Under the pieces are notes generated by a model, which had not been told where the DNA came from, ran no database searches, and saw only the letters and a list, made by a program, of their open reading frames with translations. A DNA stretch of 29,701 nt. Origin: a virus. Below are positions 190 to 28,194 of the stretch, piece by piece; within the stretch, counting starts at the first letter, position 1, and every line of letters begins with the position of its first letter. The stretch lies in the UHGV virus genome UHGV-0181887, one strand, 5' to 3'. A program made the position numbers and the translations under genes.

Positions 190-1170
190 TTAAAGCGATA
201 CGCCACCGGCAAGCGGATTTAGTGAGACAGCATTTTGCAGATAGTCTGGCGATAGATGCGCGTATACCATCGTTTGCTGAATGCTGGCGTGTCCTAAAAT
301 CTGCTGTAGCGCGATAATGTTTCCTCCGTTCATCATGAAATGACTTGCGAAGGTGTGACGCAGAATGTGCGTTGCCTGGTTCGGCGGTATGTCTGCTTTT
401 ACCGCCTTCAGTGTCAGACAAAACTTTTCATAGTCCACTTTAAACAGTTTCGCGCTTGCCTCCTTTTTGATCAGCTTTTCCAGTTCGGCAGAAATTGGAA
501 CGGTGCGCTTTTTCCCGTTTTTGGTCTTCAGGAACGTCACGCGGCAATTGACGATCTGTGAGGGCTTTAATGTTGCCAGTTCAGACCATCGAGCGCCGGT
601 GCTGACCCCCAGAAGGGCAATCAATCTTGCATCACCGGTTAATGCATTGAGCAAGCTGCTGATCTCTTCCTTTTCCAGAAATGTCATTTCCGGGTTTTCT
701 TCTGCCAGTGGCGGTAGTCCATGCACTGGATGAGCGCCGGAAAACTCTTCCAACTGAATCAACTTTGTGAACATGCCTGAAAAGCGGTACATATCACGGT
801 TGATTGTTGATGCCTTTATTCCATCGCGAAGCCGTATTGATCGGTAATCCATCAAAAGCCGTTTACTCACACGGCTAACAGGTATGTCACCGATGCCGCT
901 GATCGTCTTCGTCAGGTGGTTAAATTCCTTCTCACCGTGTTCATGGTTTTGACCGTGATACTTCCACCAGGTTTCCAGTAGTTCAGAGAGCGTGCGGCGA
1001 TCTGTTCTCTGGCCCGCCCATTCCTTCTGATTGGCGTTTGCTAATGTGTATCGCTCAAAAGCAACTGCCTCAGCCTTTCTTTCAAATTTCCGGCGGATGC
1101 GACGTCCTTCACGCCCGCGCGGTCTGATATCCACTTCATAACGCCCATCATCGAGTCTTTTGATACTCAT
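190..1170 (-). CDS. int: Tyrosine-recombinase phage integrase (P2 Int-like)
   Basis: 326-aa ORF; C-terminal catalytic region HILRHTFASHF...LGHASIQQTMVYAHL typical of tyrosine recombinases; position at the prophage edge next to the repressor. Confidence 0.9.
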   Translation of the reverse strand: MSIKRLDDGRYEVDIRPRGREGRRIRRKFERKAEAVAFERYTLANANQKEWAGQRTDRRTLSELLETWWKYHGQNHEHGEKEFNHLTKTISGIGDIPVSRVSKRLLMDYRSIRLRDGIKASTINRDMYRFSGMFTKLIQLEEFSGAHPVHGLPPLAEENPEMTFLEKEEISSLLNALTGDARLIALLGVSTGARWSELATLKPSQIVNCRVTFLKTKNGKKRTVPISAELEKLIKKEASAKLFKVDYEKFCLTLKAVKADIPPNQATHILRHTFASHFMMNGGNIIALQQILGHASIQQTMVYAHLSPDYLQNAVSLNPLAGGVSL

Positions 1171-2932: not shown

Positions 2933-3904
2933 ATGATTCGATCTCTCGTTAAATGGCCTGGTGGTAAAGGTCGCGTTTTACCTGATTTATTGCCGGTATT
3001 GCCGAAAGGTGATTGCCTGGTTGAGCCGTTTGTGGGCGGCGCTTCTGTCTTTCTGAATACCGAGTATCGCCGTTATGTTCTGGGCGACATAAACCCAGAT
3101 TTAATAAACCTTTATCGCCAGGTTGCGCATTTTCCAGATGGCGTCATTGAGGATGCGAAGCGACTGTTTAAAGTCTTTTGCACACCGGATGGGTATGCAG
3201 ATACAAGGGATGATTTTAACTCGCGTCGCCTCTCTCACCTCCCGGCGCAAGATGGCCCCAGCGCGGAGCATATAACCCGCGCAGCGCAATTTCTTTTCCT
3301 CAATCGCCACTGCTATAACGGAATGGTTCGCTACAACCAGAGCGGCGGCTACAACGTCCCTTACGGCAAGCATAAAACCGCGCCTTATTTCCCGGAAGAG
3401 CAGATCCGTTTGTTCTCTGAAAAGGCTAATGACACAAGGGCTATTTTCTTGTGTTGCTCATTTGAAAGCACAATCAGGGTTACTACTGATTGCGCTTCCG
3501 TTATTTATTGTGACCCGCCGTACCTACCAGTAAGCGACACCGCCAACTTCACCGAATATTACAGCGGCCCATTTGGTGAGAAACAACACCGCCAGTTGGT
3601 TGCGGCCCTCGTTGATGCAAACCGCGAGACGGGCGCGTCTGTCGTGATTTCTAACAGTGATACTCCGCTGACCCGCGAGATTTATAAAAACTTCCGCTTC
3701 CAGGAAATTGCCGTTCAGCGTTCGGTAAGTGCCAACACCCTGAAGCGCGAAAAGGCCAAAGAGGTGATCGGCGTTCTCAATGTGTGCGATGGCTGCGGGC
3801 GTGCCGGTGGTGGGCGTTGTCCTGATTGCGGCCCTGCTATGGGTGACGCGACTTACAGTGAAATGTTGGCAACGGCTGCGGCAAATGGCGTGGAGGCTTT
3901 CTGA
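2933..3904 (+). CDS. dam: DNA N6-adenine methyltransferase (Dam-like) with C-terminal Cys4 zinc-ribbon extension
   Basis: Motif I VEPFVGGASVF and motif IV DPPY (VIYCDPPYLP) read directly; C-terminal CDGCGRAGGGRCPDCG; GAGAAAG RBS before ATG 2933. Confidence 0.85.
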   Translation: MIRSLVKWPGGKGRVLPDLLPVLPKGDCLVEPFVGGASVFLNTEYRRYVLGDINPDLINLYRQVAHFPDGVIEDAKRLFKVFCTPDGYADTRDDFNSRRLSHLPAQDGPSAEHITRAAQFLFLNRHCYNGMVRYNQSGGYNVPYGKHKTAPYFPEEQIRLFSEKANDTRAIFLCCSFESTIRVTTDCASVIYCDPPYLPVSDTANFTEYYSGPFGEKQHRQLVAALVDANRETGASVVISNSDTPLTREIYKNFRFQEIAVQRSVSANTLKREKAKEVIGVLNVCDGCGRAGGGRCPDCGPAMGDATYSEMLATAAANGVEAF

Positions 3905-7144: not shown

Positions 7145-7648
7145 TTACTTGTTTTTTTTGAGTGGGTTCTTTTTCCATCGCTTAACTAGCCACTCGAATT
7201 CTTGATAGGTGGTCTCTGAGTTAATGTGCTCTCTGATGGCTTTAATCAGCGGTTCGGCAATATCAAACGTTTCAATTACAGTGCTGTAAGATGTGCGTTT
7301 GATCATCTCTTCGTTATAGATGCCCTCACGAATGCTGACCGCTACTCTTTCGTAAAAATTCAGAATGTACTGAAATTTTCGACGCTCAACCATTTCATCT
7401 TCAGTGATAGCACCGCCATTGCATGGGAAAACATAAGCGCGAAAAGATTTTCCTGAACGATGTACCTGTTTTAAAACGTGGAGCGATTCTAGGTATTGCG
7501 CGTCCTGGCGGCTCTCAAATAAAAAGTTTGCAGTCTGCGTTTTCTTTGCCGTTCGAACGTTGTAGATAATCGTTACGATAGCGGCAACAACACCGAGAAA
7601 AACAACGGCGCTGCTAATGATGGAAAGTGTGTTTGCGTCGAGAGTCAT
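7145..7648 (-). CDS. Membrane-anchored protein of unknown function (N-terminal TM helix, about 135-aa cytoplasmic domain); candidate exclusion/defence gene
   Basis: 167 aa from ATG 7648; hydrophobic segment LSIISSAVVFLGVVAAIVTIIY; visibly AT-richer than flanking phage genes; lies in the P2 tin/old variable locus next to cos. Confidence 0.6.
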   Translation of the reverse strand: MTLDANTLSIISSAVVFLGVVAAIVTIIYNVRTAKKTQTANFLFESRQDAQYLESLHVLKQVHRSGKSFRAYVFPCNGGAITEDEMVERRKFQYILNFYERVAVSIREGIYNEEMIKRTSYSTVIETFDIAEPLIKAIREHINSETTYQEFEWLVKRWKKNPLKKNK

Positions 7649-7660
7649 CAAATTTTATCC

Positions 7661-7688
7661 ATAAAAAAGGCGGGGTAAAATCCCCGCC
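7661..7688 (-). terminator. Intrinsic terminator immediately upstream of the membrane-protein gene (attenuator-like)
   Basis: Minus-strand reading GGCGGGG-AUUUUA-CCCCGCC followed by UUUUUU; sits between the 11-codon leader ORF and the 7648 start codon. Confidence 0.6.
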
Positions 7689-7706
7689 TCGTAGAGGTCA
7701 TGCGGC

Positions 7707-7742
7707 TTAGAAGCCGTCAAATTCATCAAACATATTTTTCAT
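7707..7742 (-). CDS. Putative 11-aa leader peptide MKNMFDEFDGF
   Basis: ATG at 7742 preceded by AGGAGG with a 6-nt spacer (minus strand), stop TAA at 7709-7707, then the terminator 18 nt downstream; coding status unproven. Confidence 0.35.
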   Translation of the reverse strand: MKNMFDEFDGF

Positions 7743-7794
7743 AACCAACCTCCTCAGATTCTGCTGTAACCACGCGCAGTGGTTGTATGTGACA

Positions 7795-7823
7795 AAATTA
7801 CCCCAAACGTAATAGGTAGTCAA
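7795..7823 (-). promoter_or_regulatory. Candidate sigma70 promoter for the leader/membrane-protein unit
   Basis: Minus-strand TTGACT (7823-7818), 17-bp spacer, TAATTT (7800-7795), a weak -10; a 14/16 near-palindrome TGCGCAAATTTGCACA at 7855-7870 lies upstream. Confidence 0.25.
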
Positions 7824-7967
7824 ATAAACGGTCACTTTTTTACCCGCACAATAGTGCGCAAATTTGCACAATAAAATCATTACCGATTTTTGGCGGTAAC
7901 GCCTGTAGTGGTGCTGGTTGGGCGTAGATCTGCAAGTGCACGAAAACACGCGTGATCGTTGCGCGCA

Positions 7968-7986
7968 GGTGACGGGGGGAAAGCCC
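7968..7986. other. Putative cos cohesive-end site
   Basis: GGTGACGGGGGGAAAGCCC resembles the P2/186 19-nt cohesive end as recalled from memory; located between island 1 and portal gene Q as expected for a P2 prophage. Confidence 0.4.
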
Positions 7987-8171
7987 GCGCGGCAGGGTAG
8001 GTAGGGGGATGCCTCAAACATAGGAAAATTGGCGCAATTCTGGCGCGCTGCTGCGTTCTGTGTGTTGTGTGCGGGTAGTGGCGTGTTTAGATGATGAGGT
8101 GCTTAGAATGGCGCTGGCGCGCCGTGTGTTGATGTGATGCGGAGAGCGCCGCCGGGGTGGCGGCGGTGTGG

Positions 8172-18981: not shown

Positions 18982-19588
18982 CAGTCTGTTGCCACCTTCA
19001 GCCAGTGATTTTATGCGCGGTGCCGAGGCCGCAACCTGGCGCGTGAGTGATTTGCCCGTAGACCTGAAAACGCTGTGGAACCCTGATGAATGCCCGGTTG
19101 CTTTACTGCCTTATCTGGCCTGGGCGTTATCGGTTGATCGCTGGGATAAAGGCTGGTCAGAACAGACAAAGCGACAGGTGATTAAATCCGCCTGGCTGGT
19201 ACACCGGCAAAAGGGAACTATTGCGGGGCTGCGCCGTGTCGTTGAGCCGTTCGGCTTCCTGATAAAGGTCGTTGAATGGTGGCAGAACGGAGGCGAGCGG
19301 GGAACATTTCAACTTGAAATTGGTGTTTCTGACTCAGGGATTACAGAAGAAACCTATCTCGAGCTTGAGCGCCTGATCGCTGATGCAAAACCATGCTCAC
19401 GCCACCTGACCGGCCTTGCAATCAGTATGCAGGCGAAGGGAGAGGTATACGCCCACGCCGGGTGTTATGGCGGTGACGTGATGACTATTTACCCCTATAT
19501 GCCTGAAGCCGTAGAAGTCAGTGGCGGGTATTTTCCCGGGGGCGCAATTCATATTATTGATACGTTAGAGGTAACAAATGGCGGCTAA
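18974..19588 (+). CDS. I: Baseplate protein (P2 gpI-like)
   Basis: 204-aa ORF overlapping J stop and H start; synteny. Confidence 0.8.
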   Translation: MNNSLLPPSASDFMRGAEAATWRVSDLPVDLKTLWNPDECPVALLPYLAWALSVDRWDKGWSEQTKRQVIKSAWLVHRQKGTIAGLRRVVEPFGFLIKVVEWWQNGGERGTFQLEIGVSDSGITEETYLELERLIADAKPCSRHLTGLAISMQAKGEVYAHAGCYGGDVMTIYPYMPEAVEVSGGYFPGGAIHIIDTLEVTNGG

Positions 19589-20864
19589 ATTCTTTGCCCT
19601 GCTGACTGCTCAGGGGGCGGCAAAATTATCAAATATGGCTGCGCTGGGTGAGAAGTTAGAAATCACCTCGCTCGCAGTTGGCGACGGCGGCGGCAAATCA
19701 CCAACGCCAAACCAGGCACAGACAGCGCTGGTTAACGAGGTGCGCCGCGCCCAGCTTAACTCGCTGTCAGTGGACGATAAAAACGACAGCCAGATTATTG
19801 CGGAGCAGATTATTCCTGAATCCGTTGGCGGGTGGTGGATTCGTGAAATAGGACTCTTTGACGCTGATGGTATCTTGATTGCTGTGGCTAACTGCCCGGA
19901 GACGTACAAGGCCACAACAGAGGAAGGATCAGGCCGTACGCAGGTTATCAGGATGGTGCTCACGGTATCGAGCACTGATGCCGTTACCCTGAAAGTTGAT
20001 CCATCGGTTGTGCTGGCAACCCGGCAGTATGTTGATAGTGCTGTAATTGAGGTGAAAACCTATACAGACAACGCGATAAAAAAGCACGTTGACACCGCTA
20101 ATCCGCATAGCCAGTACCTGTTGATTGAAAATGCTCTTAAAGAATTGATTAAGGCCGGGTTGGTTGGAGAGGCTATCAAAAACCTTGGTTTAGATAAAAC
20201 AGTTCAATTAGCAGCCGATGCGTTACCTGCTTCTGGTGGGAGGGTTACTGGTGATGTGATTGTTGAAGGTATTATCTCAGCAGTCGGACACGAAATGATC
20301 GTGGAAAAAGAGAGTGGTTTTTCAGGTATTCATATCAAAAATAAAAGCAGTGAAAATGGAAGTGCATGTGGTTTGGATTTTTCATTTGGTGGAGCAATTA
20401 TGTCGTCGATTATTTGCGGCATAATGGGAAACGGCGCGAACTATATTGATTTTGCTTTATCTCCATCAGGGGAGATCTCCGATCGTCGAGTTAATGCATT
20501 CACAATGAATGCTGATGTGAAAAAATTGATTTTTCAGAATGATTGGGGCATTCAGGGGTATGTGAAAAATACAGACTTTACTCAGGTAATGGCTGATGCC
20601 GGTTGGGTGCGTTTTCCAAATGGAATAATTTTACAGTGGTGTTGGGGGAATACTGATGGTGGCGGCTGGGCTTCAGCCCCTTTTCCTATTGGTTGGCCTG
20701 TTCGCTGTTTTGGTATCTTGCCATGCAATGTGGCTGGTAATGCAGCAGCGTCGGCGATTGCTGGAGTTAAAAGATTAAGCGATCGAGATATGCAGGTTTC
20801 TTTATTAGAAAGAACAGGCGCCGCTGCGTCAAAACCATTCTTTTGCTTTGGTGTGGGGTGTTAA
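19578..20864 (+). CDS. H: Tail fibre protein (P2 gpH-like N-terminus, divergent AT-rich C-terminal receptor-binding region)
   Basis: 428 aa; conserved N-terminal anchor region; the 3' third (about 20200-20864) is visibly AT-rich; shorter than P2 H (about 669 aa, from memory). Confidence 0.8.
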   Translation: MAAKFFALLTAQGAAKLSNMAALGEKLEITSLAVGDGGGKSPTPNQAQTALVNEVRRAQLNSLSVDDKNDSQIIAEQIIPESVGGWWIREIGLFDADGILIAVANCPETYKATTEEGSGRTQVIRMVLTVSSTDAVTLKVDPSVVLATRQYVDSAVIEVKTYTDNAIKKHVDTANPHSQYLLIENALKELIKAGLVGEAIKNLGLDKTVQLAADALPASGGRVTGDVIVEGIISAVGHEMIVEKESGFSGIHIKNKSSENGSACGLDFSFGGAIMSSIICGIMGNGANYIDFALSPSGEISDRRVNAFTMNADVKKLIFQNDWGIQGYVKNTDFTQVMADAGWVRFPNGIILQWCWGNTDGGGWASAPFPIGWPVRCFGILPCNVAGNAAASAIAGVKRLSDRDMQVSLLERTGAAASKPFFCFGVGC

Positions 20865-20866
20865 TT

Positions 20867-21298
20867 ATGTTTAGTAATATATATTTCAGTGCTAAGAATA
20901 ACTCATTCTTTTTTGAGTCAATGAAATCAGACTATGAAAAAACGAATACTTGGCCTGATGACATTGTTGAAGTTGAATCTGATATTTATCAGAAATACAC
21001 AGGAAGGCCGCCAGAAGGAAAAGGTAGAGGAGGCGACGCTTCCGGTCAGCCTGTATGGGTTGATGTATCAGAGCCTACAGCCGATCAGTTAATTGCGTTA
21101 GCTATACAGCAAAAAAAAGACTTGGCTGAAAATGCAGGTACAGAAATTGCGTGGCGGCAGGATGCGATTGAAGCTGGTATTTCAACCGATGATGAAGTTA
21201 TTCAGCTTGCGAAGTGGAAGAAATATCGGGTGCTATTGATGCGTATTGACACATCAAAAGCCCCCGACATTATCTGGCCTGATATCCCTGAGGATTAA
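20867..21298 (+). CDS. G: Tail fibre assembly chaperone (Tfa, P2 gpG position)
   Basis: 143 aa from ATG 20867, directly after H; AT-rich; the conserved Tfa-like C-terminal half is a family assignment by position and size. Confidence 0.7.
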   Translation: MFSNIYFSAKNNSFFFESMKSDYEKTNTWPDDIVEVESDIYQKYTGRPPEGKGRGGDASGQPVWVDVSEPTADQLIALAIQQKKDLAENAGTEIAWRQDAIEAGISTDDEVIQLAKWKKYRVLLMRIDTSKAPDIIWPDIPED

Positions 21299-22263
21299 TT
21301 TGATAGGCTTTTTAGTCTAAAGTTTGCAATTAAATTATCTTTAATGATATTAGCTATTGAATAGCTAATGCAAATAGTGCATGCGACTGTTGTTATGACT
21401 AACCAATCAGATGCAAATTGTTTTGCAAGCTGAATGGCATAGATTTGTATAAGATATATGTTTTTTGAGTGCTCGCGAATTGTGAAGGTGTTTTTTGTTT
21501 TCAGGGTGATATCTAGCACTTTTAAAAAAACAAAAACACCAGCGAACGGAAGTGAAAAAAGCATATCAAAGGTATATGTGCCATATGAATAATTTACGGA
21601 TGCCTCAATGATGACCAAAATAATGGAACCAATGAGTAAATATGTATTGTTATTTCTTATATTATTTTTATTTATAAGGTATCCAAGCATAAATAATGGA
21701 AAACCCATGAAAAGACCGTTTCTGGAAAAGAAAACTGTAGCGAGAGACCATATATCACGATTTATGTCAATGGCATAATTTGCGCGATATTGAAGTAACG
21801 TGCCGCACGTATAAAGTATGCAGCATATGATTATTGATGTGCGATCTTTTAGCTTAGCTAAAAGTAATGTTAATAATGCCGATACTATCAGGGCAGGGAA
21901 AAACCATAAGTGCCAAAATCCAAATACTGCATTTAGAGATAAATATGTAAGGTCTGTCGCTAAAGGTTTACCCGCCCTAATAAAACCAACTAACCCTAGT
22001 ATTATTGGCAAGTAAAGAAGCGTCCATAGAGCATAGGTTTTTATATTGTGAGAAAACCATTTTTTAATTTTATTTTTTTGCATTACAGAAAAATAAAAAT
22101 ACCCACTAGTAATGAAAAAGAATGGCACTGCAATCCTTAGAAGTCCCTGGCAAGTAACATATCCTATATAATTACTGTTGCCGCCTAAAATGTCTGTGTG
22201 TATAAAAATAATACAAAACGCAAAGAAAAGTTTTGCGTAATCAATTGAGGAAAGGTTTTTCAT
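21295..22263 (-). CDS. Acyltransferase family 3 integral membrane protein (OafA/Oac-like O-acetyltransferase candidate); lysogenic-conversion moron
   Basis: 322-aa polytopic membrane protein with about 10 hydrophobic segments; strongly AT-rich by eye; antisense to the late operon at the P2 Z/fun variable position. Confidence 0.7.
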   Translation of the reverse strand: MKNLSSIDYAKLFFAFCIIFIHTDILGGNSNYIGYVTCQGLLRIAVPFFFITSGYFYFSVMQKNKIKKWFSHNIKTYALWTLLYLPIILGLVGFIRAGKPLATDLTYLSLNAVFGFWHLWFFPALIVSALLTLLLAKLKDRTSIIICCILYTCGTLLQYRANYAIDINRDIWSLATVFFSRNGLFMGFPLFMLGYLINKNNIRNNNTYLLIGSIILVIIEASVNYSYGTYTFDMLFSLPFAGVFVFLKVLDITLKTKNTFTIREHSKNIYLIQIYAIQLAKQFASDWLVITTVACTICISYSIANIIKDNLIANFRLKSLSN

Positions 22264-22388
22264 ATAGAGTCTAGTCGCGCAATTAGGAAGAATGTGGTTA
22301 TTTTACTTACAAAAATTCTAAGGGCAATCATTTAGTCTGCACAATTTACACATAATTGAGCAAAATTAGAGCCAGGTCTCTTGTTGCT

Positions 22389-22424
22389 CCCCTCGGTGAA
22401 AACCAATCCGAGGGGGATATTTTT
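22389..22424 (+). terminator. Intrinsic terminator (plus-strand orientation) at the right end of accessory island 2
   Basis: CCCCTCGG (22389-22396), 11-nt loop, CCGAGGGG (22408-22415), then GATATTTTT; U-tail only on the plus strand, so likely ends the V-G late transcript. Confidence 0.5.
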
Positions 22425-22430
22425 ACTTGT

Positions 22431-22919
22431 TTAAAACAGACTGGATGCGGCAGCGCTGATATTATTCAGCGCTGAGTTGGCTGTGTTTTGTAGGTTGCTG
22501 AGTAAATCACTCACTGATGAAGACTGGAGGCTTTCGCGCAGGTCTTCATCCTGCCTTTGAAACGTGATCGTAAATTCTATTTTCTTCGGCTCCCCATACT
22601 GGTCAAATTCAGTATCGGTTGTCTGAAGCTGCGTTATCGAATACATGCCATATATCCGCCCGGTGCCGCTGATAAGGGGCCAGGGGCGTCCGGTATATGC
22701 CTGTGTATCGAGCACAGTTAGACTCACCTTGCCGCCGGTCACTGAAGGGTACAAAACGCCGGATAGGGTGATTTGATCGTCACCTGCACCAATGTATTGC
22801 CACTTTGCCGATCGGTTTATGCGCTCGTTCTTCACATGCCGCCAGGTCTTTGACTGCTGCAATTGTTGGTGTGGAACGGTTTTTAACTCAAAGACGAACA
22901 TTCCGTAAACCATCATCAT
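22431..22919 (-). CDS. U: Tail protein U (P2 gpU-like)
   Basis: 162 aa; N-terminus MMMVYGMFVFELKTVPHQ resembles P2 U (recalled from memory); follows the tape measure gene. Confidence 0.8.
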   Translation of the reverse strand: MMMVYGMFVFELKTVPHQQLQQSKTWRHVKNERINRSAKWQYIGAGDDQITLSGVLYPSVTGGKVSLTVLDTQAYTGRPWPLISGTGRIYGMYSITQLQTTDTEFDQYGEPKKIEFTITFQRQDEDLRESLQSSSVSDLLSNLQNTANSALNNISAAASSLF

Positions 22920-22931
22920 TTTTTTGCTCTC

Positions 22932-25900
22932 CTAATCTTTGTCTCTGAAACTGCTGCCAGAGCGGGAACGCTTGTTAAGTTCCGCCACAACTGCTTCACC
23001 CACCATCCGTGCAATGTCGCGGGCGTCGTTGCTGAGATTGCCGTGCATATGAATGTGAATATGCATTTCATCAGGCGCGGTGTTTTGCGTCGGTCTGCTG
23101 GCTTGTTTACTGGATTGCCCGCCAATAGCCTGTACTTCAGCCGCCGGTTTAATCGGTGCTGATGCCGCTGTGATAGCGGGGCGTGCGCTAAGTTGGGCCA
23201 GGTTAGCGCCAGGGGTTGATTGTGCTTCCTGCCATGCGCCGTGGACGGCTAAAGCGCGGGGCAGATTTTTAAACACGATATCGCCAGGGCCGATCCGCTT
23301 TTTGGTTTCATCCAGCATCCCGCCGGTGTTGTCGGCAATTTTCTGTAGGCGTCGTTGCGTTCCTGTATCAGCGGCAATCACTGGTGACGGTGGGGCAATA
23401 GGTGGCGCGGTTACCGCTTTCACATCACCGGTGAGCGCGCTAACTTTATCCTGCAGCATAGCCAGTCCTGCCGGTGTTAACTCCTGCTGTATCTTTTGTG
23501 CCTTTGCTCTGGCTGCTTCAATGCCTGAAGGGATTAATCCCAACTTTTCCAGTATCCAGCCAATGCCTTTCATTAACCCCGTTAAGGGCAACATTAACCC
23601 CTGAAGCACCGCACCAAATACGGTGCCGAATCCATACCCGGCAATTTTGCAATCATCCAGCGTCTTTTGTGTTGTTTGCATTGGGCTAATCAGGTTTGTA
23701 AACCACTGCCACACTTGGGCGAGCGCATTTGAAATAACGCCAAATATCGGGGCTAGAGAGGAAAACGCAGTGATTAAAGGGGCGAGGGCATTAACCACAC
23801 CAGTAAAGAATCCCGCAAAGAAGGCTTTGATCGGCTCCCAGTATTTCCAGACCAGTAGACCTACCGCGATAAGCGCCGCGCCAATCAGTCCAATCGGACT
23901 CAGGATAAACGACAGCACACCGCCGAGAGCGGAAATTGCGGTTGTGGCAATGCTCATGATAGTGGGGATGCCGGACAATCTGAGGAGAAGGCCACCAATG
24001 CTCTTAGTTAGCCCACCAATCGCCGCCCCTGGCGACATAAACGCCCCCATCATAATTCCGCGTAACGGCGCAAGAATGCTGGTAAGTTTTCCAGTACTTC
24101 CCGCTATTCCGCCCAAAATTGGGCCCCAGGCCCGCGCGCTGCCAAGCGGCCCGGTAATGGCACCACCAAGACGACTGAATAGAGATAGCGCACCGCCAGC
24201 ACTGCCGGAACTTGTCAGCAGGGTAAAGCCGAGTTGCAGTTTTGCCAGCGGGCCAAGAAGTAAGCCAATAGCCAGAGACGTTGCACCAATCGCGGCGGTG
24301 AGGGCCAGCGCACTGCCGCCAACTACCAGAAGGGTTTTTGATAGCTGCGGATTCTTATTCGCCCATTCCGTCATCACGCCGATCGTACCGGTTAGTGCCT
24401 GGGTGAGTTTTCGCAGTGCGCCGTCCGCCAGTTCTTCAATCTGGATGCGGAACGCTTCCAAGGCGCTATCGAGTTCTTTTAGATCCCCGCCCAGGTTGTC
24501 CGCCATTTTTTTTGCGACGGTGGCGGATTCACCGGCGGCGCCCTGAAGTTCTTTTGTGAGCTTTTGTAGCTCCCCCGAACCTGCCGCCTGTACCAGCGTT
24601 TGAAGGCCCACAAAAGCCTCTTCACCGGCGATGTCCTTGAAGAACGATACCTGATCGACTTCGCCGTATTTTTTCGTGGCCTTGAAAAGGTCTGACAGCA
24701 CGGTTTCCATCGGGCGCATTTTCCCGTTGGCGTCGGCAACTGATACGCCCAACTCTGCCAGGGCTTTAGCCGCGGCTTTTGGCGGTGAGGCTAGGCGGGA
24801 AAGGCTGGAACGCATAGCTGTACCGGCGTCACTGCCGCGCAGACCGTTATTGGCAAGCATACCCGCCATAGCGGATGCCTCTTCCAGGCTAATTCCCAGA
24901 TTAGCCGCCACTGGCCCGGCATATTTCATTGTGTCGCCCAGGGCGCGCAGGTCGGTATTGGTACGGGTAAAAGCGGCGGTTAGCGTATCGCCAACCCTGT
25001 CCATCTGATCTGATGACAGCTTGAATTGCGTCAGGATGTTTGAACCGATATCAGCGGATTCGCCCAGATCCATGCCACCGGCTAACGCCATATTCAGAAC
25101 GCCAGGCAATGCGGCCTGAATTGACTGTGGTGTAAAGCCCGCCATTGCTAAGAAGGCTTGCCCGCTGGCGGCGTCTCGCGTGGTAAATGCGGTTTCAGCA
25201 CCCAGTTTTTTAGCCTGGGCGCGCATAGCGGCAAACTGTTCATCGCCCTTATCCAGGCGAGTCAGTGCACCTACGCGGGACATTTCCTCATCAAAACCAA
25301 CGGCTGGGGCCAGGAAGCGTCCGGCAGCGTAGCCCGCCCCCGCGCTTGCGCCAACAGCCATTGCGCCGCCGGTGCGTAGTTTGCCAGCCGTGGCGCTCAG
25401 ACGGTCATAGCGGGCGCGCGCGTTGGTGACTGCGGCAAGTTGTCGCCGTTCTCTCTCAAGCGTCTGGTTATATTGCTCAGTGCGCCTGATGGCGCTTTGA
25501 ATTGTGCGATCGCCGCCCGCCAGTGAGACACCGTGCGCGCGCAGCGCCTGGGACGCTTGCTGGAGTTTTGCTGTCTCCTGTGACCGGCTGGCATTCAGGC
25601 GATCAAGTTTCGCCGCCAGTGCCGTCATGCGCTCGCGCTGTGCGTCGGTTAGTACGGTGCCGTCCTTCTGGGCTTTGTTCAGGCCGTCAAAGGCGCGCTG
25701 TGTTGTAGTAAGTTGCTGGGCTGTCTTTTTAACGCGCTCATTCAGGCGGTTGAATGCCTGGGATTGCGTTTCCAGATCCTTGATAGAAGATTGTGTTTTT
25801 TTGAGGGATTCAGATAAGCCGCCCACTGAGTTGCGGGCGGCATTTACCGGGCGGGTTAACTTATCAATCGCACTGAAGGCGACACGAATATTAAGGTCTT

Positions 25901-25940
25901 TCATCTTCACTGTTTCCGCTTCGGATAGCCGCCCGCTCAC
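22932..25940 (-). CDS. T: Tail tape measure protein (P2 gpT-like)
   Basis: 1002-aa Ala/Gly-rich protein with coiled-coil N-terminus and hydrophobic glycine-zipper-like central segments; follows E/E'. Confidence 0.9.
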   Translation of the reverse strand: MSGRLSEAETVKMKDLNIRVAFSAIDKLTRPVNAARNSVGGLSESLKKTQSSIKDLETQSQAFNRLNERVKKTAQQLTTTQRAFDGLNKAQKDGTVLTDAQRERMTALAAKLDRLNASRSQETAKLQQASQALRAHGVSLAGGDRTIQSAIRRTEQYNQTLERERRQLAAVTNARARYDRLSATAGKLRTGGAMAVGASAGAGYAAGRFLAPAVGFDEEMSRVGALTRLDKGDEQFAAMRAQAKKLGAETAFTTRDAASGQAFLAMAGFTPQSIQAALPGVLNMALAGGMDLGESADIGSNILTQFKLSSDQMDRVGDTLTAAFTRTNTDLRALGDTMKYAGPVAANLGISLEEASAMAGMLANNGLRGSDAGTAMRSSLSRLASPPKAAAKALAELGVSVADANGKMRPMETVLSDLFKATKKYGEVDQVSFFKDIAGEEAFVGLQTLVQAAGSGELQKLTKELQGAAGESATVAKKMADNLGGDLKELDSALEAFRIQIEELADGALRKLTQALTGTIGVMTEWANKNPQLSKTLLVVGGSALALTAAIGATSLAIGLLLGPLAKLQLGFTLLTSSGSAGGALSLFSRLGGAITGPLGSARAWGPILGGIAGSTGKLTSILAPLRGIMMGAFMSPGAAIGGLTKSIGGLLLRLSGIPTIMSIATTAISALGGVLSFILSPIGLIGAALIAVGLLVWKYWEPIKAFFAGFFTGVVNALAPLITAFSSLAPIFGVISNALAQVWQWFTNLISPMQTTQKTLDDCKIAGYGFGTVFGAVLQGLMLPLTGLMKGIGWILEKLGLIPSGIEAARAKAQKIQQELTPAGLAMLQDKVSALTGDVKAVTAPPIAPPSPVIAADTGTQRRLQKIADNTGGMLDETKKRIGPGDIVFKNLPRALAVHGAWQEAQSTPGANLAQLSARPAITAASAPIKPAAEVQAIGGQSSKQASRPTQNTAPDEMHIHIHMHGNLSNDARDIARMVGEAVVAELNKRSRSGSSFRDKD

Positions 25941-26363
25941 GCCAGGCTATCACCTCACTCAGGGACATAGTGAAAACCTCTGAGGGCGGCCAGTTGAAAA
26001 TAACTGCTATATCAGCAACCAGATCATCGATCAGGTCAAAGTGGGGCGCGTTTACTCGCTCTCCGTCTCCGTCTCGTTCTTCGTGCCAGGCTCCTTCGGC
26101 GCTAAAAAAGGCGTTAGTACCTCGCAAAGTTCAACAAAGTCAGATGTTTCCATTTCACTGATTTCTTTGAGCTTCAGGCGTGGGGAAGTGCAGCGGGTTA
26201 ACAGGGTGCTGATGCTGTCCACGTCCATATTCATAACGTTCACCAGGCGAAGGCCGCGCAGGGAGCCAGCCTGTTTCACTTCGTCAGTGATCGTGATGGT
26301 TTTGATTTCGTTGCCGTCGCGGGAGATCGGGCGGGTCAGTGTTACGGTGTTTTCTTGAGTCAT
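25891..26363 (-). CDS. E+E': Tail assembly chaperone E+E' (product of -1 programmed frameshift)
   Basis: E frame 26363-26052 and overlapping -1 frame ending at 25891; translation across the slip site changes from ...LTPFLAPKEPG to ...LTPFFSAEGAWHEE, matching the track ORF 25891..26127. Confidence 0.7.
26052..26363 (-). CDS. E: Tail assembly chaperone E (P2 gpE-like)
   Basis: 103-aa ORF between the tail tube and tape measure genes; contains the slippery site near its 3' end. Confidence 0.8.
   Translation of the reverse strand: MTQENTVTLTRPISRDGNEIKTITITDEVKQAGSLRGLRLVNVMNMDVDSISTLLTRCTSPRLKLKEISEMETSDFVELCEVLTPFLAPKEPGTKNETETESE
26103..26109 (-). promoter_or_regulatory. Slippery heptamer T_TTT_TTA for -1 ribosomal frameshift (E to E+E')
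   Basis: Minus-strand zero-frame codons CCT TTT TTA GCG; slipping -1 gives TTT TTT AGC GCC, continuing into the E' ORF. Confidence 0.65.
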
Positions 26364-26417
26364 CGTTTTAATCTCCGGGCGGCATCACCACGATGCCGCG
26401 CCTGTAGTGGTTGTTGG

Positions 26418-26930
26418 TTACCCCATGCCCAGCGCGGACATCACGCGGGAAGGGTAAATATTTTCGCCGTTGCGTTTGTACACGAAGTTCAGCAGGTCAA
26501 TTTCCCAGATGGGCTTATCGTCAATTGACAGCTTGTAGTACGTGTTTTTAATGGCGTAGGTGACGGATGTATCTTCGCCCTGTTTGCTTTCGCCGCCGTC
26601 GATTTCGGTGAATTTGCCGCGCATTTCCACGTCAACGATCTGGCTTTCGCCGGATGTGTAATATTCCCCGGTGAATCGGATAAGCGTACCGTCCAGATCG
26701 CCGCCGTATTCCAGTAGCAAAGCCTGAACCAGGCCGCCTACAACCATCGTGGCATCAAGCGCGCCGCTATCCAGTCCGAGATCGACAGCAACAGAGCCAA
26801 TCATCCCGCCGCCCTGATAGTCGTCAGTTTTGCGGGTCAGTTTTGGCAGCGTGACAGATGTCACTTTGCCGATATTGTTCACGCTGTTCACAAAGCAGGT
26901 GAACAGCCGTAGTTTTGGTGGAATCGCCAT
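26418..26930 (-). CDS. FII: Tail tube protein (P2 gpFII-like)
   Basis: 170 aa; N-terminus and internal KLTRK...GGGM...VDLGLD segments resemble P2 FII (recalled from memory). Confidence 0.85.
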   Translation of the reverse strand: MAIPPKLRLFTCFVNSVNNIGKVTSVTLPKLTRKTDDYQGGGMIGSVAVDLGLDSGALDATMVVGGLVQALLLEYGGDLDGTLIRFTGEYYTSGESQIVDVEMRGKFTEIDGGESKQGEDTSVTYAIKNTYYKLSIDDKPIWEIDLLNFVYKRNGENIYPSRVMSALGMG

Positions 26931-28121
26931 TTAGTTACTCCCCAGAGACGAAAACGCGCCTTCAAAATATTCATCGGTGAACGTCTGGATCAGCGTCAAA
27001 TCTTCCATCGGTGGCACTGGCGTGTACTTGTAGCGGATCGCCACTTTGCCCTGAATCAGGTTTGCGGTTCCGTTGTCCACGATGTCAAACCAGGCTTCCG
27101 CGCCAAGCAACTTGCCAGCTGTGACCAGTGCACTGAGTTTCTTGTTAATCGCGCTCACCACGTCTTTCACGTTGGTCGGGGTGAGTGGCCCGTCAATGGT
27201 TTCAAATTGCGCCTCTGCGATGGTGTCCGCCAGGATTTGCGCCGTGCGGGTGTACACCTCAAACACAAATTCATTGGTGTCTGTGGTGCGGTTACCCCAG
27301 AAACGGAAGCCATTACGCTTGATGATGGTGGTGATTTCAGCGTTGTTCAGCGTCTGTGCGTCACTGTCTTCAGCCTGAAGCGCCCAGAAAACATCCTTCG
27401 AAATGCCAAGCACATTGCTGACGGCAATGTTAGATAGCGAGCGGTGCCAGCCGTACTGGTTATCAATAAACGCGCGCAGCCCTACCGCATAGGCCGGGGC
27501 CGGGAATACTTCATTTTCCCCGGACACCTGGTTATATGCGATGTAGTCAGGCCAGATCAGCGTGAGTTCGCGTGATGCGAAGGTTTTACGATACGCGAGG
27601 GCTTCCGCCAGCGTCTTGCAGCCGTTACAGCTTGCATAAACATAGGCGCGAAGCTGTTTGGCGATCACACAAAGCTGTGCCGTCACTTCTTCGGTGTCGT
27701 ATTCAGGAACCGCCAGGATGCGCGGTCGATACTGTGTCTTCTGTTCGGCAGTCAGAAGCGCATACATGCCGGTGTAGTTACCTTCAGCATCAGAGCCACC
27801 GATAATTAGTTGCGCTTGCGTTTTCGCTTCTGCGTCGCCTTCCAGCGGCTTGGCTGCGGCGACACGAACAACAATGACTTTCGCGCTTGCCTGGTCTGAA
27901 ATGGCTTTCAGCGTTTTGTACAGCGTCCCTGTTTTCCCCGCCTTGCCCAGCATCGACTGAGGCCGCGTGATAAGCGTTGGGGTGTTGAGTGGAAATGCGT
28001 CTTCGTCCGCGTCATCAGCGATGACAATTACGCCAATGACGCTGGAGTCAATGTCGTTAATTACCTTCGTGATGTCGGTTTCTTCTTTGGTGCGAGCACC
28101 GTGAAAACGTGTCTCAGACAT
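26931..28121 (-). CDS. FI: Contractile tail sheath protein (P2 gpFI-like)
   Basis: 396 aa from ATG 28121 (GGTGA RBS; track ORF begins 12 nt upstream at 28133); segments RPRILAVPEYDTEEV, IRRNGFRFWGNRT and YKYTPVPPMEDLTL resemble P2 FI. Confidence 0.9.
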   Translation of the reverse strand: MSETRFHGARTKEETDITKVINDIDSSVIGVIVIADDADEDAFPLNTPTLITRPQSMLGKAGKTGTLYKTLKAISDQASAKVIVVRVAAAKPLEGDAEAKTQAQLIIGGSDAEGNYTGMYALLTAEQKTQYRPRILAVPEYDTEEVTAQLCVIAKQLRAYVYASCNGCKTLAEALAYRKTFASRELTLIWPDYIAYNQVSGENEVFPAPAYAVGLRAFIDNQYGWHRSLSNIAVSNVLGISKDVFWALQAEDSDAQTLNNAEITTIIKRNGFRFWGNRTTDTNEFVFEVYTRTAQILADTIAEAQFETIDGPLTPTNVKDVVSAINKKLSALVTAGKLLGAEAWFDIVDNGTANLIQGKVAIRYKYTPVPPMEDLTLIQTFTDEYFEGAFSSLGSN

Positions 28122-28194
28122 GTTTGTCACCATTACGTTTTGTTGAGTTCGCCACCATGATTGCTGATTGACGTAACGGCTTCACGCCTTTCTG

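What the first reader, a model, noticed from the sequence alone, without database searches (positions are those of the whole stretch)
21295..22430. AT-rich acyltransferase-3 membrane protein at the Z/fun position: likely lysogenic conversion by surface-polysaccharide acylation
A 322-aa polytopic membrane protein with the architecture of acyltransferase family 3 (OafA / Sf6 Oac-like O-antigen acetylases) is inserted antisense between Tfa and the tail-core block, with markedly lower GC than the flanks. Phage-borne O-acetylases in this family modify the receptor polysaccharide and block superinfection. Its stop codon overlaps the Tfa stop (shared TTAA), and the tail-core genes on the same strand upstream lack an intervening U-tailed terminator, so late transcripts may read into it as well.
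Basis: partly seen in the sequence, partly recalled or inferred. Interest (0 to 1): 0.6.

Follow-up and report, generated by a model that had tools for sequence, protein, structure and literature searches.

The report
Prophage membrane acyltransferase beside tail-fibre genes
A P2-like E. coli prophage carries, right behind its tail-fibre genes, an imported AT-rich gene for a membrane acyltransferase that most likely decorates a cell-surface sugar polymer of the lysogen; this is a new, uncharacterised lineage of an already known kind of phage cargo gene.

Summary
Window 21295-22263 (-) is an intact 322-aa ORF that matches Pfam PF01757 (acyltransferase-3, AT3) over its full length: 71 bits against a cut-off of 31. 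Its GC is 0.32 against 0.52 for the window. It converges on the tail-fibre assembly gene with a shared TTAA stop.

The gene belongs to a tiny, isolated clade found in E. coli prophages and one Pantoea chromosomal locus. It is present in 1 of 5,426 complete E. coli genomes and in none of 50,697 phage records. In all five related phage contexts examined, on several different myovirus backbones, it abuts a tail-fibre assembly gene.

It is not close to Sf6 Oac or OafA. Its nearest outside relatives sit in a P22-like prophage at the oac slot and in Wzx/Wzy polysaccharide clusters. The direct precedent is neaT of E. coli CFT073, an unrelated AT3 lineage in the same P2 slot.

Surface-glycan acylation with lysogenic conversion is the best reading, but substrate and phenotype are untested. 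Verdict: new member of a known kind, modest interest.

The parts
21295..22263 (-). AT3-only integral membrane acyltransferase gene (322 aa; about 10 TM helices, N-in/C-in). It has K11-X10-H22 in TMH1 and a VPFFFITSGY motif at residues 46-55.
22300..22327 (-). Sigma-70-type promoter candidate: -35 TTGCCC (22327-22322), 16-nt spacer, -10 TAAAAT (22305-22300), 36 nt upstream of the ATG.
   Evidence: Consensus scan; the count in the region is not above chance. However, TTG and TAAAAT are invariant in all 7 homologous loci, including the Pantoea chromosomal copy; coordinates.
22295..22374 (-). 80-nt conserved 5' block that travels with the gene (promoter plus about 45 nt upstream of the -35). It marks the 5' edge of the cassette.
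   Evidence: Pairwise identity is 54-71% among divergent phage copies in this block. It is 26-42% further upstream and 23-53% in the 5' UTR, while synonymous sites of the ORF are saturated.
22389..22415 (.). GC-rich hairpin CCCCTCGG-N11-CCGAGGGG, 16 nt past the U stop codon. The T-run (GATATTTTTACTTGTTT) is on the + strand only. It is a likely stop for plus-strand V..H-Tfa transcripts after they cross the AT3 gene antisense, and a leaky or no terminator for minus-strand FI..U transcripts.
   Evidence: Sequence. Fold energies -16.2 and -17.5 kcal/mol, z only -1.4 and -1.3 against shuffles. A related prophage has a classical U-tailed terminator after U instead. Function is inferred.
21295..21298 (.). 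Shared TTAA: overlapping stop codons of Tfa (+) and AT3 (-).
   Evidence: The same 4-nt overlap is seen in L002, L006 and L013, a 7-nt overlap in L012, and a 5-nt gap in L014.
20867..21298 (+). Tail-fibre assembly gene (Tfa/G, 143 aa from ATG 20867), the invariable convergent neighbour of this AT3 clade in phages.
   Evidence: PF02413, E 5.8e-33. Annotated start taken from the 98%-identical prophage of E. coli ES1. GC3 0.347.
19578..20864 (+). Tail-fibre gene H. The N-terminal collar domain has backbone composition. The C-terminal half (about 20178-20864, Gp53-like_C tip) has low GC3 like Tfa and AT3.
   Evidence: PF12571 plus PF21882. GC3 is 0.550 for the N-terminal part and 0.319 for the C-terminal part. 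Mosaic similarity to fibres next to other clade members.

Best explanation
The gene is a prophage 'moron': a self-contained cassette of about 1.08 kb (22374 to 21295). It consists of its own sigma-70 promoter and an AT3-only integral membrane O-acyltransferase, lodged at the 3' end of the tail-fibre operon of a P2-like E. coli prophage.

**Proposed mechanism.**
- In the lysogen the gene is transcribed from its own promoter, independently of the repressed late genes.
- The 10-helix protein forms the transmembrane pore typical of AT3/TmAT enzymes.
- It takes an acyl group, most likely acetyl, from cytoplasmic acyl-CoA. Basic residues K11 and K75 stand in the positions that bind the CoA phosphates in OafB.
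- With the TMH1 histidine (H22) at the periplasmic end, it passes the acyl group to a sugar hydroxyl of a periplasm-facing glycan.
- The most likely acceptor is a lipid-linked Wzx/Wzy repeat unit or LPS (O-antigen or core).
- The result is an altered cell surface (lysogenic conversion). This can mask receptors from phages that use that glycan, possibly including the phage's own fibre, and/or change interactions with a host.

**Shown here:** family membership, fold, intactness and purifying selection, foreign composition, conserved promoter block, constant linkage to tail-fibre assembly genes, and the contexts of relatives.

**Inferred:** expression in the lysogen, acyl donor, acceptor and phenotype.
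For: - **Catalytic residues.** The TMH1 His is invariant in 93/93 sub-family sequences. The basic residue 11 positions upstream is K in 60 and R in 32. It aligns with R11/H22 of Sf6 Oac.
- **Intactness.** dN/dS is 0.07-0.18 with synonymous sites saturated.
- **Own promoter.** The TTG/TAAAAT block is conserved in all seven loci.
- **Foreign composition.** GC3 0.29 against 0.53-0.565 for the backbone.
- **Context of clade members.** P2-type prophages in canonical and inverted order, a P2 remnant, and two other myovirus backbones. The gene always converges on a Caudo_TAP gene. The Pantoea stewartii copy lies between hisIE and gnd.
- **Context of nearest relatives outside the clade.**
  - P0161 (35% identity, E 1e-37) lies between integrase and tailspike of a P22-like prophage, which is the Sf6 oac slot.
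  - P0010 and P0013 lie inside Wzx/Wzy polysaccharide clusters.
- **Precedents.** Sf6 Oac acetylates O-antigen and blocks Sf6 superinfection (review PMC9558356). neaT of CFT073 is an AT3 gene in this same P2 slot, is transcribed in the lysogen from its native promoter, and affects virulence (PMC3573123).
- **Donor.** Acyl-CoA as the AT3 donor comes from PMC9558356 and PMC9833829.
Against: - No experiment bears on substrate or phenotype.
- AT3 acceptor specificity cannot be read from about 30% identity. The same sub-family contains the VanT membrane domain, whose role is not acyl transfer to a glycan as far as is known.
- The literal 'absolutely conserved' R-X10-H is K-X10-H here, and RXXR is H72-N-I-K75.
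- How AT3-only proteins complete the transfer without an SGNH partner is unresolved, and no partner gene is adjacent.
- No Shine-Dalgarno sequence precedes the ATG.
- The promoter match alone is not above chance.
- NeaT showed no lysozyme, polymyxin or serum phenotype, and no LPS change was reported.
- AT3 and fibre tip/Tfa types only partly co-vary: P0007 has P0003-like fibre genes but a divergent AT3. A related tip/Tfa set also exists without any AT3. The slot may therefore simply be permissive.
- The gene is rare: 1 of 5,426 complete E. coli genomes.
Confidence: 0.6

Rival explanations
1. It acts as a host-fitness or virulence modifier like NeaT. The acyltransferase changes surface properties (aggregation, phagocyte interaction) for the benefit of the lysogen in an animal host, with no role in phage exclusion. 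Its place next to the fibre genes reflects only a permissive insertion site at an operon end.
For: - NeaT occupies the same slot in a P2-like prophage and has exactly this phenotype.
- An unrelated AT3 lineage landed in the same slot (24% identity by hhalign), which argues for slot permissiveness.
- AT3 and fibre-tip types co-vary only imperfectly.
- A related tip/Tfa set occurs without an AT3.
Against: - Across five phage contexts on several different backbones, the clade always abuts Tfa.
- The nearest outgroup converges on a tailspike gene.
- Phage-borne AT3 enzymes with known function (Oac, OafB) do protect against the carrier phage.
- The two roles are not mutually exclusive.
Confidence: 0.3
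2. The acceptor is a non-LPS glycan (enterobacterial common antigen, colanic acid or capsule, osmoregulated periplasmic glucans, or peptidoglycan), so serotype is unchanged.
For: E. coli's own AT3 proteins act on ECA (WecH) and OPG (OpgC/MdoC) (weak MdoC hit). Relatives in Wzx/Wzy clusters could equally be capsule or EPS enzymes.
Against: The link to receptor-binding genes in both myovirus and P22-like contexts, and the his-gnd position in Pantoea, point toward LPS-type receptors. In one relative a WavE-family LPS-core gene lies beside the cassette. None of this is decisive.
Confidence: 0.2
3. It has a VanT-like, non-acyltransferase role: the membrane domain acts as a small-molecule (for example serine) transporter or sensor.
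For: The best NCBIfam hits are the VanT membrane domain and subunit (E 2.2e-19 and 5.4e-13, far below the cut-offs). P0012, at 35% identity, is the membrane subunit of a split VanT in a van-type operon. The role of that domain is unknown.
Against: There is no racemase, ligase or VanXY partner anywhere in the window. The catalytic His and the basic pore residues are kept. Closer relatives are in phage receptor-gene slots and polysaccharide clusters.
Confidence: 0.05
4. It is a decaying or silent passenger with no function.
For: The gene is rare, lacks a Shine-Dalgarno sequence, and is antisense to a strong late operon.
Against: The ORF is intact in every copy. dN/dS is 0.07-0.18 over saturated synonymous divergence. 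The promoter block is conserved, and 78 residues are invariant across the clade.
Confidence: 0.03

Closest known systems
NeaT (c0979 region, WP_000817508) of E. coli CFT073 P2-like prophage phi-b0847 (Wiles et al. 2013, PMC3573123)
   Same: PF01757 AT3-only protein of about 330 aa with about 30% GC. A single gene antisense to the tail genes, directly behind and overlapping the Tfa (G) gene at P2 'moron position 2'. Next to a fibre with a Gp53-like_C tip. Rare in E. coli.
   Different: A different lineage. BLASTP finds only a 19-residue match; hhalign gives 24% identity over 258 columns at probability 88%. The upstream regions are unrelated. NeaT sits between G and FI; here the neighbour is U because the tail-core block is inverted.
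Sf6 Oac (gene 15), the O-antigen acetylase of Shigella phage Sf6
   Same: AT3-only, of similar size, with its own promoter, convergent on the receptor-binding (tailspike) gene. R11-X10-H22 aligns with K11-X10-H22, and FFSISGY aligns with FFFITSGY.
   Different: Only the first 62 or so residues align (hhalign probability 12.6%). It is carried by a podovirus rather than a myovirus. Oac's substrate (rhamnose I of the S. flexneri O-antigen) and its exclusion phenotype are established; nothing is established here.
P0161-type AT3 in a P22-like prophage (uncharacterised, metagenomic)
   Same: Nearest relative outside the clade (35% identity over 252 aa, E 1e-37), with K-X10-H. It lies between integrase and tailspike, convergent on the tailspike gene, which is the classical serotype-conversion slot.
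   Different: Different phage type. It is not related to Sf6 Oac either (E 0.027) and has not been studied.
VanT membrane domain / VanT-L membrane subunit
   Same: Best-scoring curated NCBIfam models. Same sub-family, with K/R-X10-H and VPFFF motifs.
   Different: Scores are far below the model cut-offs (69 against 900; 49 against 675). There is no racemase partner and no van operon.
OafA / OafB (GtrC family II) of Salmonella
   Same: AT3 domain. OafB is prophage-borne and protects against its own phage BTP1.
   Different: Those are AT3-SGNH fusions of about 600-640 aa. This protein ends after the tenth helix and has no SGNH domain.
P2 Z/fun
   Same: Same genomic junction behind gene G. A non-essential, antisense cargo gene (for the slot definition; the P2 gene order rests on established knowledge).
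   Different: An unrelated protein and mechanism. From established knowledge, fun(Z) confers T5 resistance; this was not examined here.

Membership tests
Acyltransferase-3 (Pfam PF01757) / TmAT superfamily | Significant full-length match to the family HMM | tested here: met
   71.1 bits against a gathering score of 31, E 1.1e-19, profile positions 2-322 of 326.
Acyltransferase-3 (Pfam PF01757) / TmAT superfamily | Ten-helix transmembrane fold shared with HGSNAT and GWT1 | tested here: met
Acyltransferase-3 (Pfam PF01757) / TmAT superfamily | Catalytic histidine in TMH1 (His25 of OafB) | tested here: met
   H22 is invariant in the clade and in 93/93 sub-family sequences. It aligns with H22 of Sf6 Oac.
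Acyltransferase-3 (Pfam PF01757) / TmAT superfamily | Arg eleven residues before that His (R-X10-H, called 'absolutely conserved' in PMC9833829) | tested here: inconclusive
   The position is Lys (K11-X10-H22). In the 93-sequence sub-family it is K in 60, R in 32 and Q in 1. The positive charge is kept but the literal Arg is not.
Acyltransferase-3 (Pfam PF01757) / TmAT superfamily | RXXR on the cytoplasmic face of TMH3 ('highly conserved') | tested here: inconclusive
   The window has H72-N-I-K75. K75 is invariant in the clade, while position 72 varies (H/Q/S/T/R). In the sub-family, position 72 is R in 51 and K in 25, and position 75 is K in 39 and R in 12. The alignment to OafB itself was not made.
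AT3-SGNH O-antigen acetyltransferases (OafA/OafB type) | C-terminal periplasmic SGNH domain fused to the AT3 domain | tested here: not met
   Only PF01757 is found. The protein is 322 aa and ends after the last helix.
Oac of Sf6 (orthology) | Full-length sequence similarity to Sf6 Oac | tested here: not met
   hhalign aligns 62 columns at probability 12.6%. tblastn against all phage records finds no hit.
NeaT of CFT073 (orthology) | Full-length sequence similarity to NeaT | tested here: not met
   BLASTP gives a 19-residue hit (E 7e-4). hhalign gives 24% identity at probability 88%. Same slot, different lineage.
VanT serine racemase | Fused or adjacent PLP racemase within a van operon; score above the NCBIfam cut-off | tested here: not met
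   69 bits against a cut-off of 900. No racemase is present in the window.
Phage moron / lysogenic-conversion gene | Non-core gene at a variable slot, of deviant composition, with its own promoter, absent from relatives | tested here: met
   GC3 0.29 against about 0.55. Conserved promoter block. Related prophages carry an invertase with a second tip/Tfa set, or a deletion, at this place. The slot is defined as moron position 2 in PMC3573123.
Phage moron / lysogenic-conversion gene | Expression in the lysogen and a changed host phenotype (serotype, phage adsorption) | not testable with these tools
   Needs RNA and LPS chemistry and adsorption assays.
Known anti-phage defence systems (PADLOC) | Match to a defence-system model | tested here: not met
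   No PADLOC family at E <= 0.001.

The most novel reading that the evidence does not exclude
The fibre tip, its assembly chaperone and this acyltransferase form one mobile 'recognise-and-mask' module of about 2.2 kb, sharing low GC3. The module is exchanged among unrelated myovirus backbones, and a sister lineage is paired with P22-like tailspikes. On this reading the enzyme acylates exactly the LPS epitope that the linked receptor-binding protein uses. Every host-range swap would then bring its own superinfection exclusion. In the inverted arrangement seen here, read-through from the FI..U late operon would also mask receptors on lysing cells.
Probability: 0.2. Interest if true: 0.55.

Novelty: new member of a known kind. 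Interest (0 to 1): 0.3.

Why it matters
Phage-borne AT3 enzymes are a classical route to serotype conversion and phage exclusion, but only a few lineages (Oac, OafB) have a known substrate. The one example in a P2-like phage (NeaT) has a virulence phenotype and no known chemistry.

This clade is a second, independent AT3 lineage at the same P2 junction. It is tightly conserved, has a portable promoter, and is always joined to tail-fibre assembly genes on several phage backbones. That makes it a clean, small test case of one gene and about 1.1 kb for two questions. The first is whether myoviruses with fibre-type receptor binding also mask their receptor by acylation. The second is how AT3-only enzymes with Lys instead of Arg at the CoA-binding positions work. 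If the function turns out to be ordinary O-antigen acetylation, it adds one more serotype-modifying gene to rare E. coli prophages.

Tried and rejected
1. **Phage records.** Megablast and tblastn of the region and protein against 50,697 phage records gave no hit. No isolated phage carries this clade.
2. **Species-representative genomes.** The scan found only 28-30% identical Rhodobacter genes in a housekeeping context (UbiD/UbiX, LysR, catalase). This was uninformative.
4. **Relic hypothesis.** I tested whether the conserved block upstream of the gene is a remnant of a fibre-tip 3' end and Tfa start, prompted by a Gp53-like_C ORF running into it in L013/L014. Local alignments were no better than shuffles (z -1.3 to 1.9), so it was rejected.
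5. **Invertible segment in L014.** No long inverted repeats lie within the contig, so this is undecided.
6. **neaT promoter region.** It shows no similarity to this cassette's upstream block.
7. **Dam/OxyR-type phase variation as in gtr operons.** There is no GATC between 21847 and 22565, so there is no sign of it.
8. **Rfam scan of 20700-22700.** Nothing lies in the intergenic region. There was only a sub-threshold IS009 hit inside Tfa and a chance-level Flavo-1 hit.
9. **PADLOC.** No defence model matches.
10. **P2 hotspot literature.** PMC9122126 and PMC13586616 do not mention acyltransferases.
11. **The 345-aa form in some databases.** An indel in those variants joins an upstream ATG that lies at the predicted -35. 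The conserved MKNL start supports the 322-aa form.
Full report
**What is in the sequence.** The window is a P2-like prophage running from integrase (190-1170, minus strand) to D and ogr at the right end. It carries a P2-type C/Cox switch, a Dam-type methylase, gene A, portal and terminase, capsid genes, lysis genes, and V-W-J-I-H-Tfa on the plus strand. FI-FII-E-T-U lies on the minus strand, inverted relative to P2. A 98.2% identical prophage sits next to fieF in E. coli ES1.

The finding's ORF is real: 21295..22263 on the minus strand, ATG start, 322 aa. At this composition, 322 stop-free codons have a chance probability of about 1.3e-10, and no other frame exceeds 66 codons. GC is 0.324 and GC3 is 0.294, against 0.521 for the window and GC3 0.53-0.565 for the neighbouring backbone genes. 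The C-terminal half of the fibre gene H (GC3 0.319) and Tfa (0.347) share the low GC3. The compositionally foreign stretch is therefore about 2.2 kb: fibre tip, chaperone and this gene. The stop codons of Tfa and the ORF share TTAA at 21295-21298.

**Family and fold.** The protein matches Pfam PF01757 (acyltransferase-3) end to end, at 71.1 bits against a gathering score of 31. PHROGs gives only a weak 'O-acetyltransferase' hit. The best NCBIfam models are the VanT membrane domain, far below their cut-offs.

The motifs named as defining in PMC9833829 are R-X10-H in TMH1 and RXXR in TMH3. Here they are K11-X10-H22 and H72-N-I-K75.
- The His is invariant in 93/93 relatives.
- The basic residue before it is K in 60 and R in 32.
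- K75 is invariant in the clade.
- Sf6 Oac's R11 and H22 align exactly with K11 and H22.

The catalytic apparatus is therefore present, with conservative Arg-to-Lys changes that characterise this whole sub-family.

**It is a working gene.** All eight copies examined are intact. Pairwise dN/dS is 0.07-0.18, while synonymous sites are at or near saturation. Seventy-eight residues are invariant among nine clade members that go down to 44% identity.

**Its own control region.** A TTGCCC-16-TAAAAT promoter match lies at 22327-22300, 36 nt before the ATG. On its own this is not above chance. However, the TTG and TAAAAT are invariant in all seven homologous loci, including a chromosomal Pantoea copy. 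An 80-nt block (22374-22295) keeps 54-71% identity between copies whose far-upstream sequence (26-42%) and 5' UTR (23-53%) are essentially randomised. The cassette therefore runs from about 22374 to 21295.

There is no Shine-Dalgarno sequence in any copy and no GATC in the control region.

Between the cassette and gene U lies the hairpin CCCCTCGG-N11-CCGAGGGG (22389-22415). It has no U-tract for minus-strand transcripts but is followed by a T-run on the plus strand. A related prophage has an ordinary U-tailed terminator after U instead. My reading, which is inference, has two parts. Plus-strand late transcripts (V..H-Tfa) cross the gene antisense and end there. This cannot be general, because in the canonical-order relative the gene is antisense to both flanking operons.

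**Who else has it.** A word-indexed search of 5.8 billion proteins finds a tight clade (P0001-P0009, 46-100% identity) and then nothing above about 35%. An exhaustive HMMER pass over 1.84 billion 50%-cluster representatives confirms the gap: two representatives at 72% and 49% identity, then at most 34%. Only 4 proteins have E <= 1e-30, against 2,722 with E <= 1e-3.

Cluster members are E. coli proteins named only 'acyltransferase family protein'. One of 5,426 complete E. coli genomes has the gene, and none of 50,697 phage records does.

Contexts of the clade members:

| Protein | Identity to the window protein | Context |
|---|---|---|
| P0007 | 59% | P2-type remnant, J-I-H-Tfa then AT3 |
| P0003 | 72% | Another P2-type tail cluster with a different gene order (U, X, D, W, J, I, H, Tfa; contig ends about 600 nt past the AT3 gene) |
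| P0005 | 68% | Myovirus with a different baseplate set |
| P0006 | 66% | Beside a Gp53-like_C ORF, a WavE-family gene and a resolvase |
| Exact window protein | 100% | Three metagenomic contigs in the same H-Tfa/AT3 context (gene U is also on the one contig long enough to show it) |
| P0009 | 46% | Chromosomal in Pantoea stewartii, between hisIE and gnd |

In all five related phage contexts the gene converges on a Caudo_TAP gene, usually with a 4-nt overlap.

Fibre tips and Tfa proteins fall into two types that partly track the AT3 subclades. The match is not strict: P0007 has P0003-like fibre genes but a divergent AT3. A related tip/Tfa pair also exists in E. coli 720632 without any AT3. There it is part of a double tip/Tfa set next to an invertase gene, at the place where the window has the AT3.

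**Relatives outside the clade.** The nearest, P0161 (35% identity, E 1e-37), lies between integrase and tailspike of a P22-like prophage and converges on the tailspike gene. That is exactly where oac sits in Sf6, although P0161 is not related to Sf6 Oac. P0010 and P0013 are inside Wzx/Wzy polysaccharide gene clusters. P0012 is the membrane subunit of a split VanT. P0011 is uninformative.

**Comparison with what is known.** The direct precedent is neaT of E. coli CFT073 (PMC3573123). It is a PF01757 gene of 30% GC, antisense, directly behind Tfa at 'moron position 2' of a P2-like prophage. It is transcribed in the lysogen from its own promoter and is needed for full virulence in bacteraemia models, with no substrate identified and no lysozyme, polymyxin or serum phenotype. 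I retrieved NeaT and compared it. It shares the family and the slot, but the sequence is only remotely related: a 19-residue BLASTP hit, and hhalign at 24% identity and probability 88%. Its upstream region is unrelated.

Sf6 Oac shares only the N-terminal motif region. OafA and OafB have an SGNH domain that this protein lacks.

**Most likely function.** The best-supported reading is a moron-encoded AT3-only O-acyltransferase, expressed in the lysogen. It would move an acyl group (probably acetyl, from acyl-CoA) through its pore onto a periplasm-facing surface glycan, most plausibly a lipid-linked repeat unit or LPS. This would change the cell surface.

The association with receptor-binding modules in both myovirus and podovirus relatives favours a receptor-masking or exclusion role. 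The NeaT precedent and the imperfect co-variation keep a host-interaction role, and plain slot permissiveness, alive. The acceptor, the donor and any phenotype are untested. I give 0.6 to surface-glycan acylation with lysogenic conversion, and much less to any particular acceptor.

**Verdict.** This is a new, uncharacterised and rare lineage of a known kind of phage cargo: ordinary in principle, mildly interesting because of its strict tail-fibre linkage, its portable promoter and its Lys-type motifs.

Noticed in passing
window 22431-28133 (U, T, E/E', FII, FI on the minus strand), with D and ogr on the plus strand from about 28161: The tail-core block FI..U is inverted relative to P2, while D and ogr keep the P2 orientation. 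Related E. coli prophages with the same inversion carry a Hin/Cin-type recombinase gene directly next to U (L029), or a remnant of one (L016). This hints that invertase activity or an invertible fibre segment once occupied the place where the acyltransferase now sits.
   Followed up: partly
window 7145-8021 (minus strand), between gene A and the portal gene: The other P2 cargo slot holds two minus-strand ORFs: a DUF4760 protein (168 aa, E 7.5e-34) and a 104-aa ORF with no Pfam match. Neither hits PADLOC. The 98%-related ES1 prophage carries a Dam methylase and a hypothetical gene there instead.
   Followed up: partly
window 21061-21258 (+), inside the Tfa gene: Sub-threshold Rfam hit to IS009 (RF02111): 33.9 bits against a gathering score of 117, E 1.1e-5, over the full model length. 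It lies wholly within the Tfa coding sequence and probably reflects homology among prophage tfa genes rather than an sRNA.
   Followed up: no
L014 1-5325 and L013 1-1271 (relatives carrying P0006 and P0005): Here the acyltransferase is preceded on the same strand by a 211-aa ORF with a Gp53-like_C fibre-tip domain that runs into the conserved promoter block. Further upstream lie a WavE-family (LPS core) gene and a resolvase. The arrangement looks like a remodelled invertible fibre segment in which the AT3 stands where a second Tfa would be. No long inverted repeats were found within the contig.
   Followed up: partly
window 22218-22238 (minus strand), codons 9-15 of the acyltransferase (the following T-run reaches about codon 19): Terminator-like hairpin ACGCAAA-N7-TTTGCGT followed by TTTGTATTAT on the sense strand, just inside the ORF. 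The number of such sites in the region is not above the shuffle expectation.
   Followed up: no
whole window: GATC occurs 123 times against 94 +/- 8 in shuffles (no shuffle reached 123). The prophage encodes a D12-class adenine methylase (2933-3904). The acyltransferase cassette with its flanks (21847-22565) has none.
   Followed up: no
L034 6001-9007 (P22-like prophage, metagenomic): A 318-aa AT3 of the same sub-family (35% identical to the window protein, unrelated to Sf6 Oac) occupies the oac slot between integrase and tailspike. This is an uncharacterised second AT3 lineage at the P22-type serotype-conversion position.
   Followed up: partly
database entries P0001/P0121 (345 aa) versus window 22264-22331: Some database versions of this protein are 23 residues longer. 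In those variants an indel joins an upstream ATG (at window 22331, the predicted -35 region) in frame. In the window that ATG is out of frame, and stop codons precede the conserved MKNL start.
   Followed up: yes
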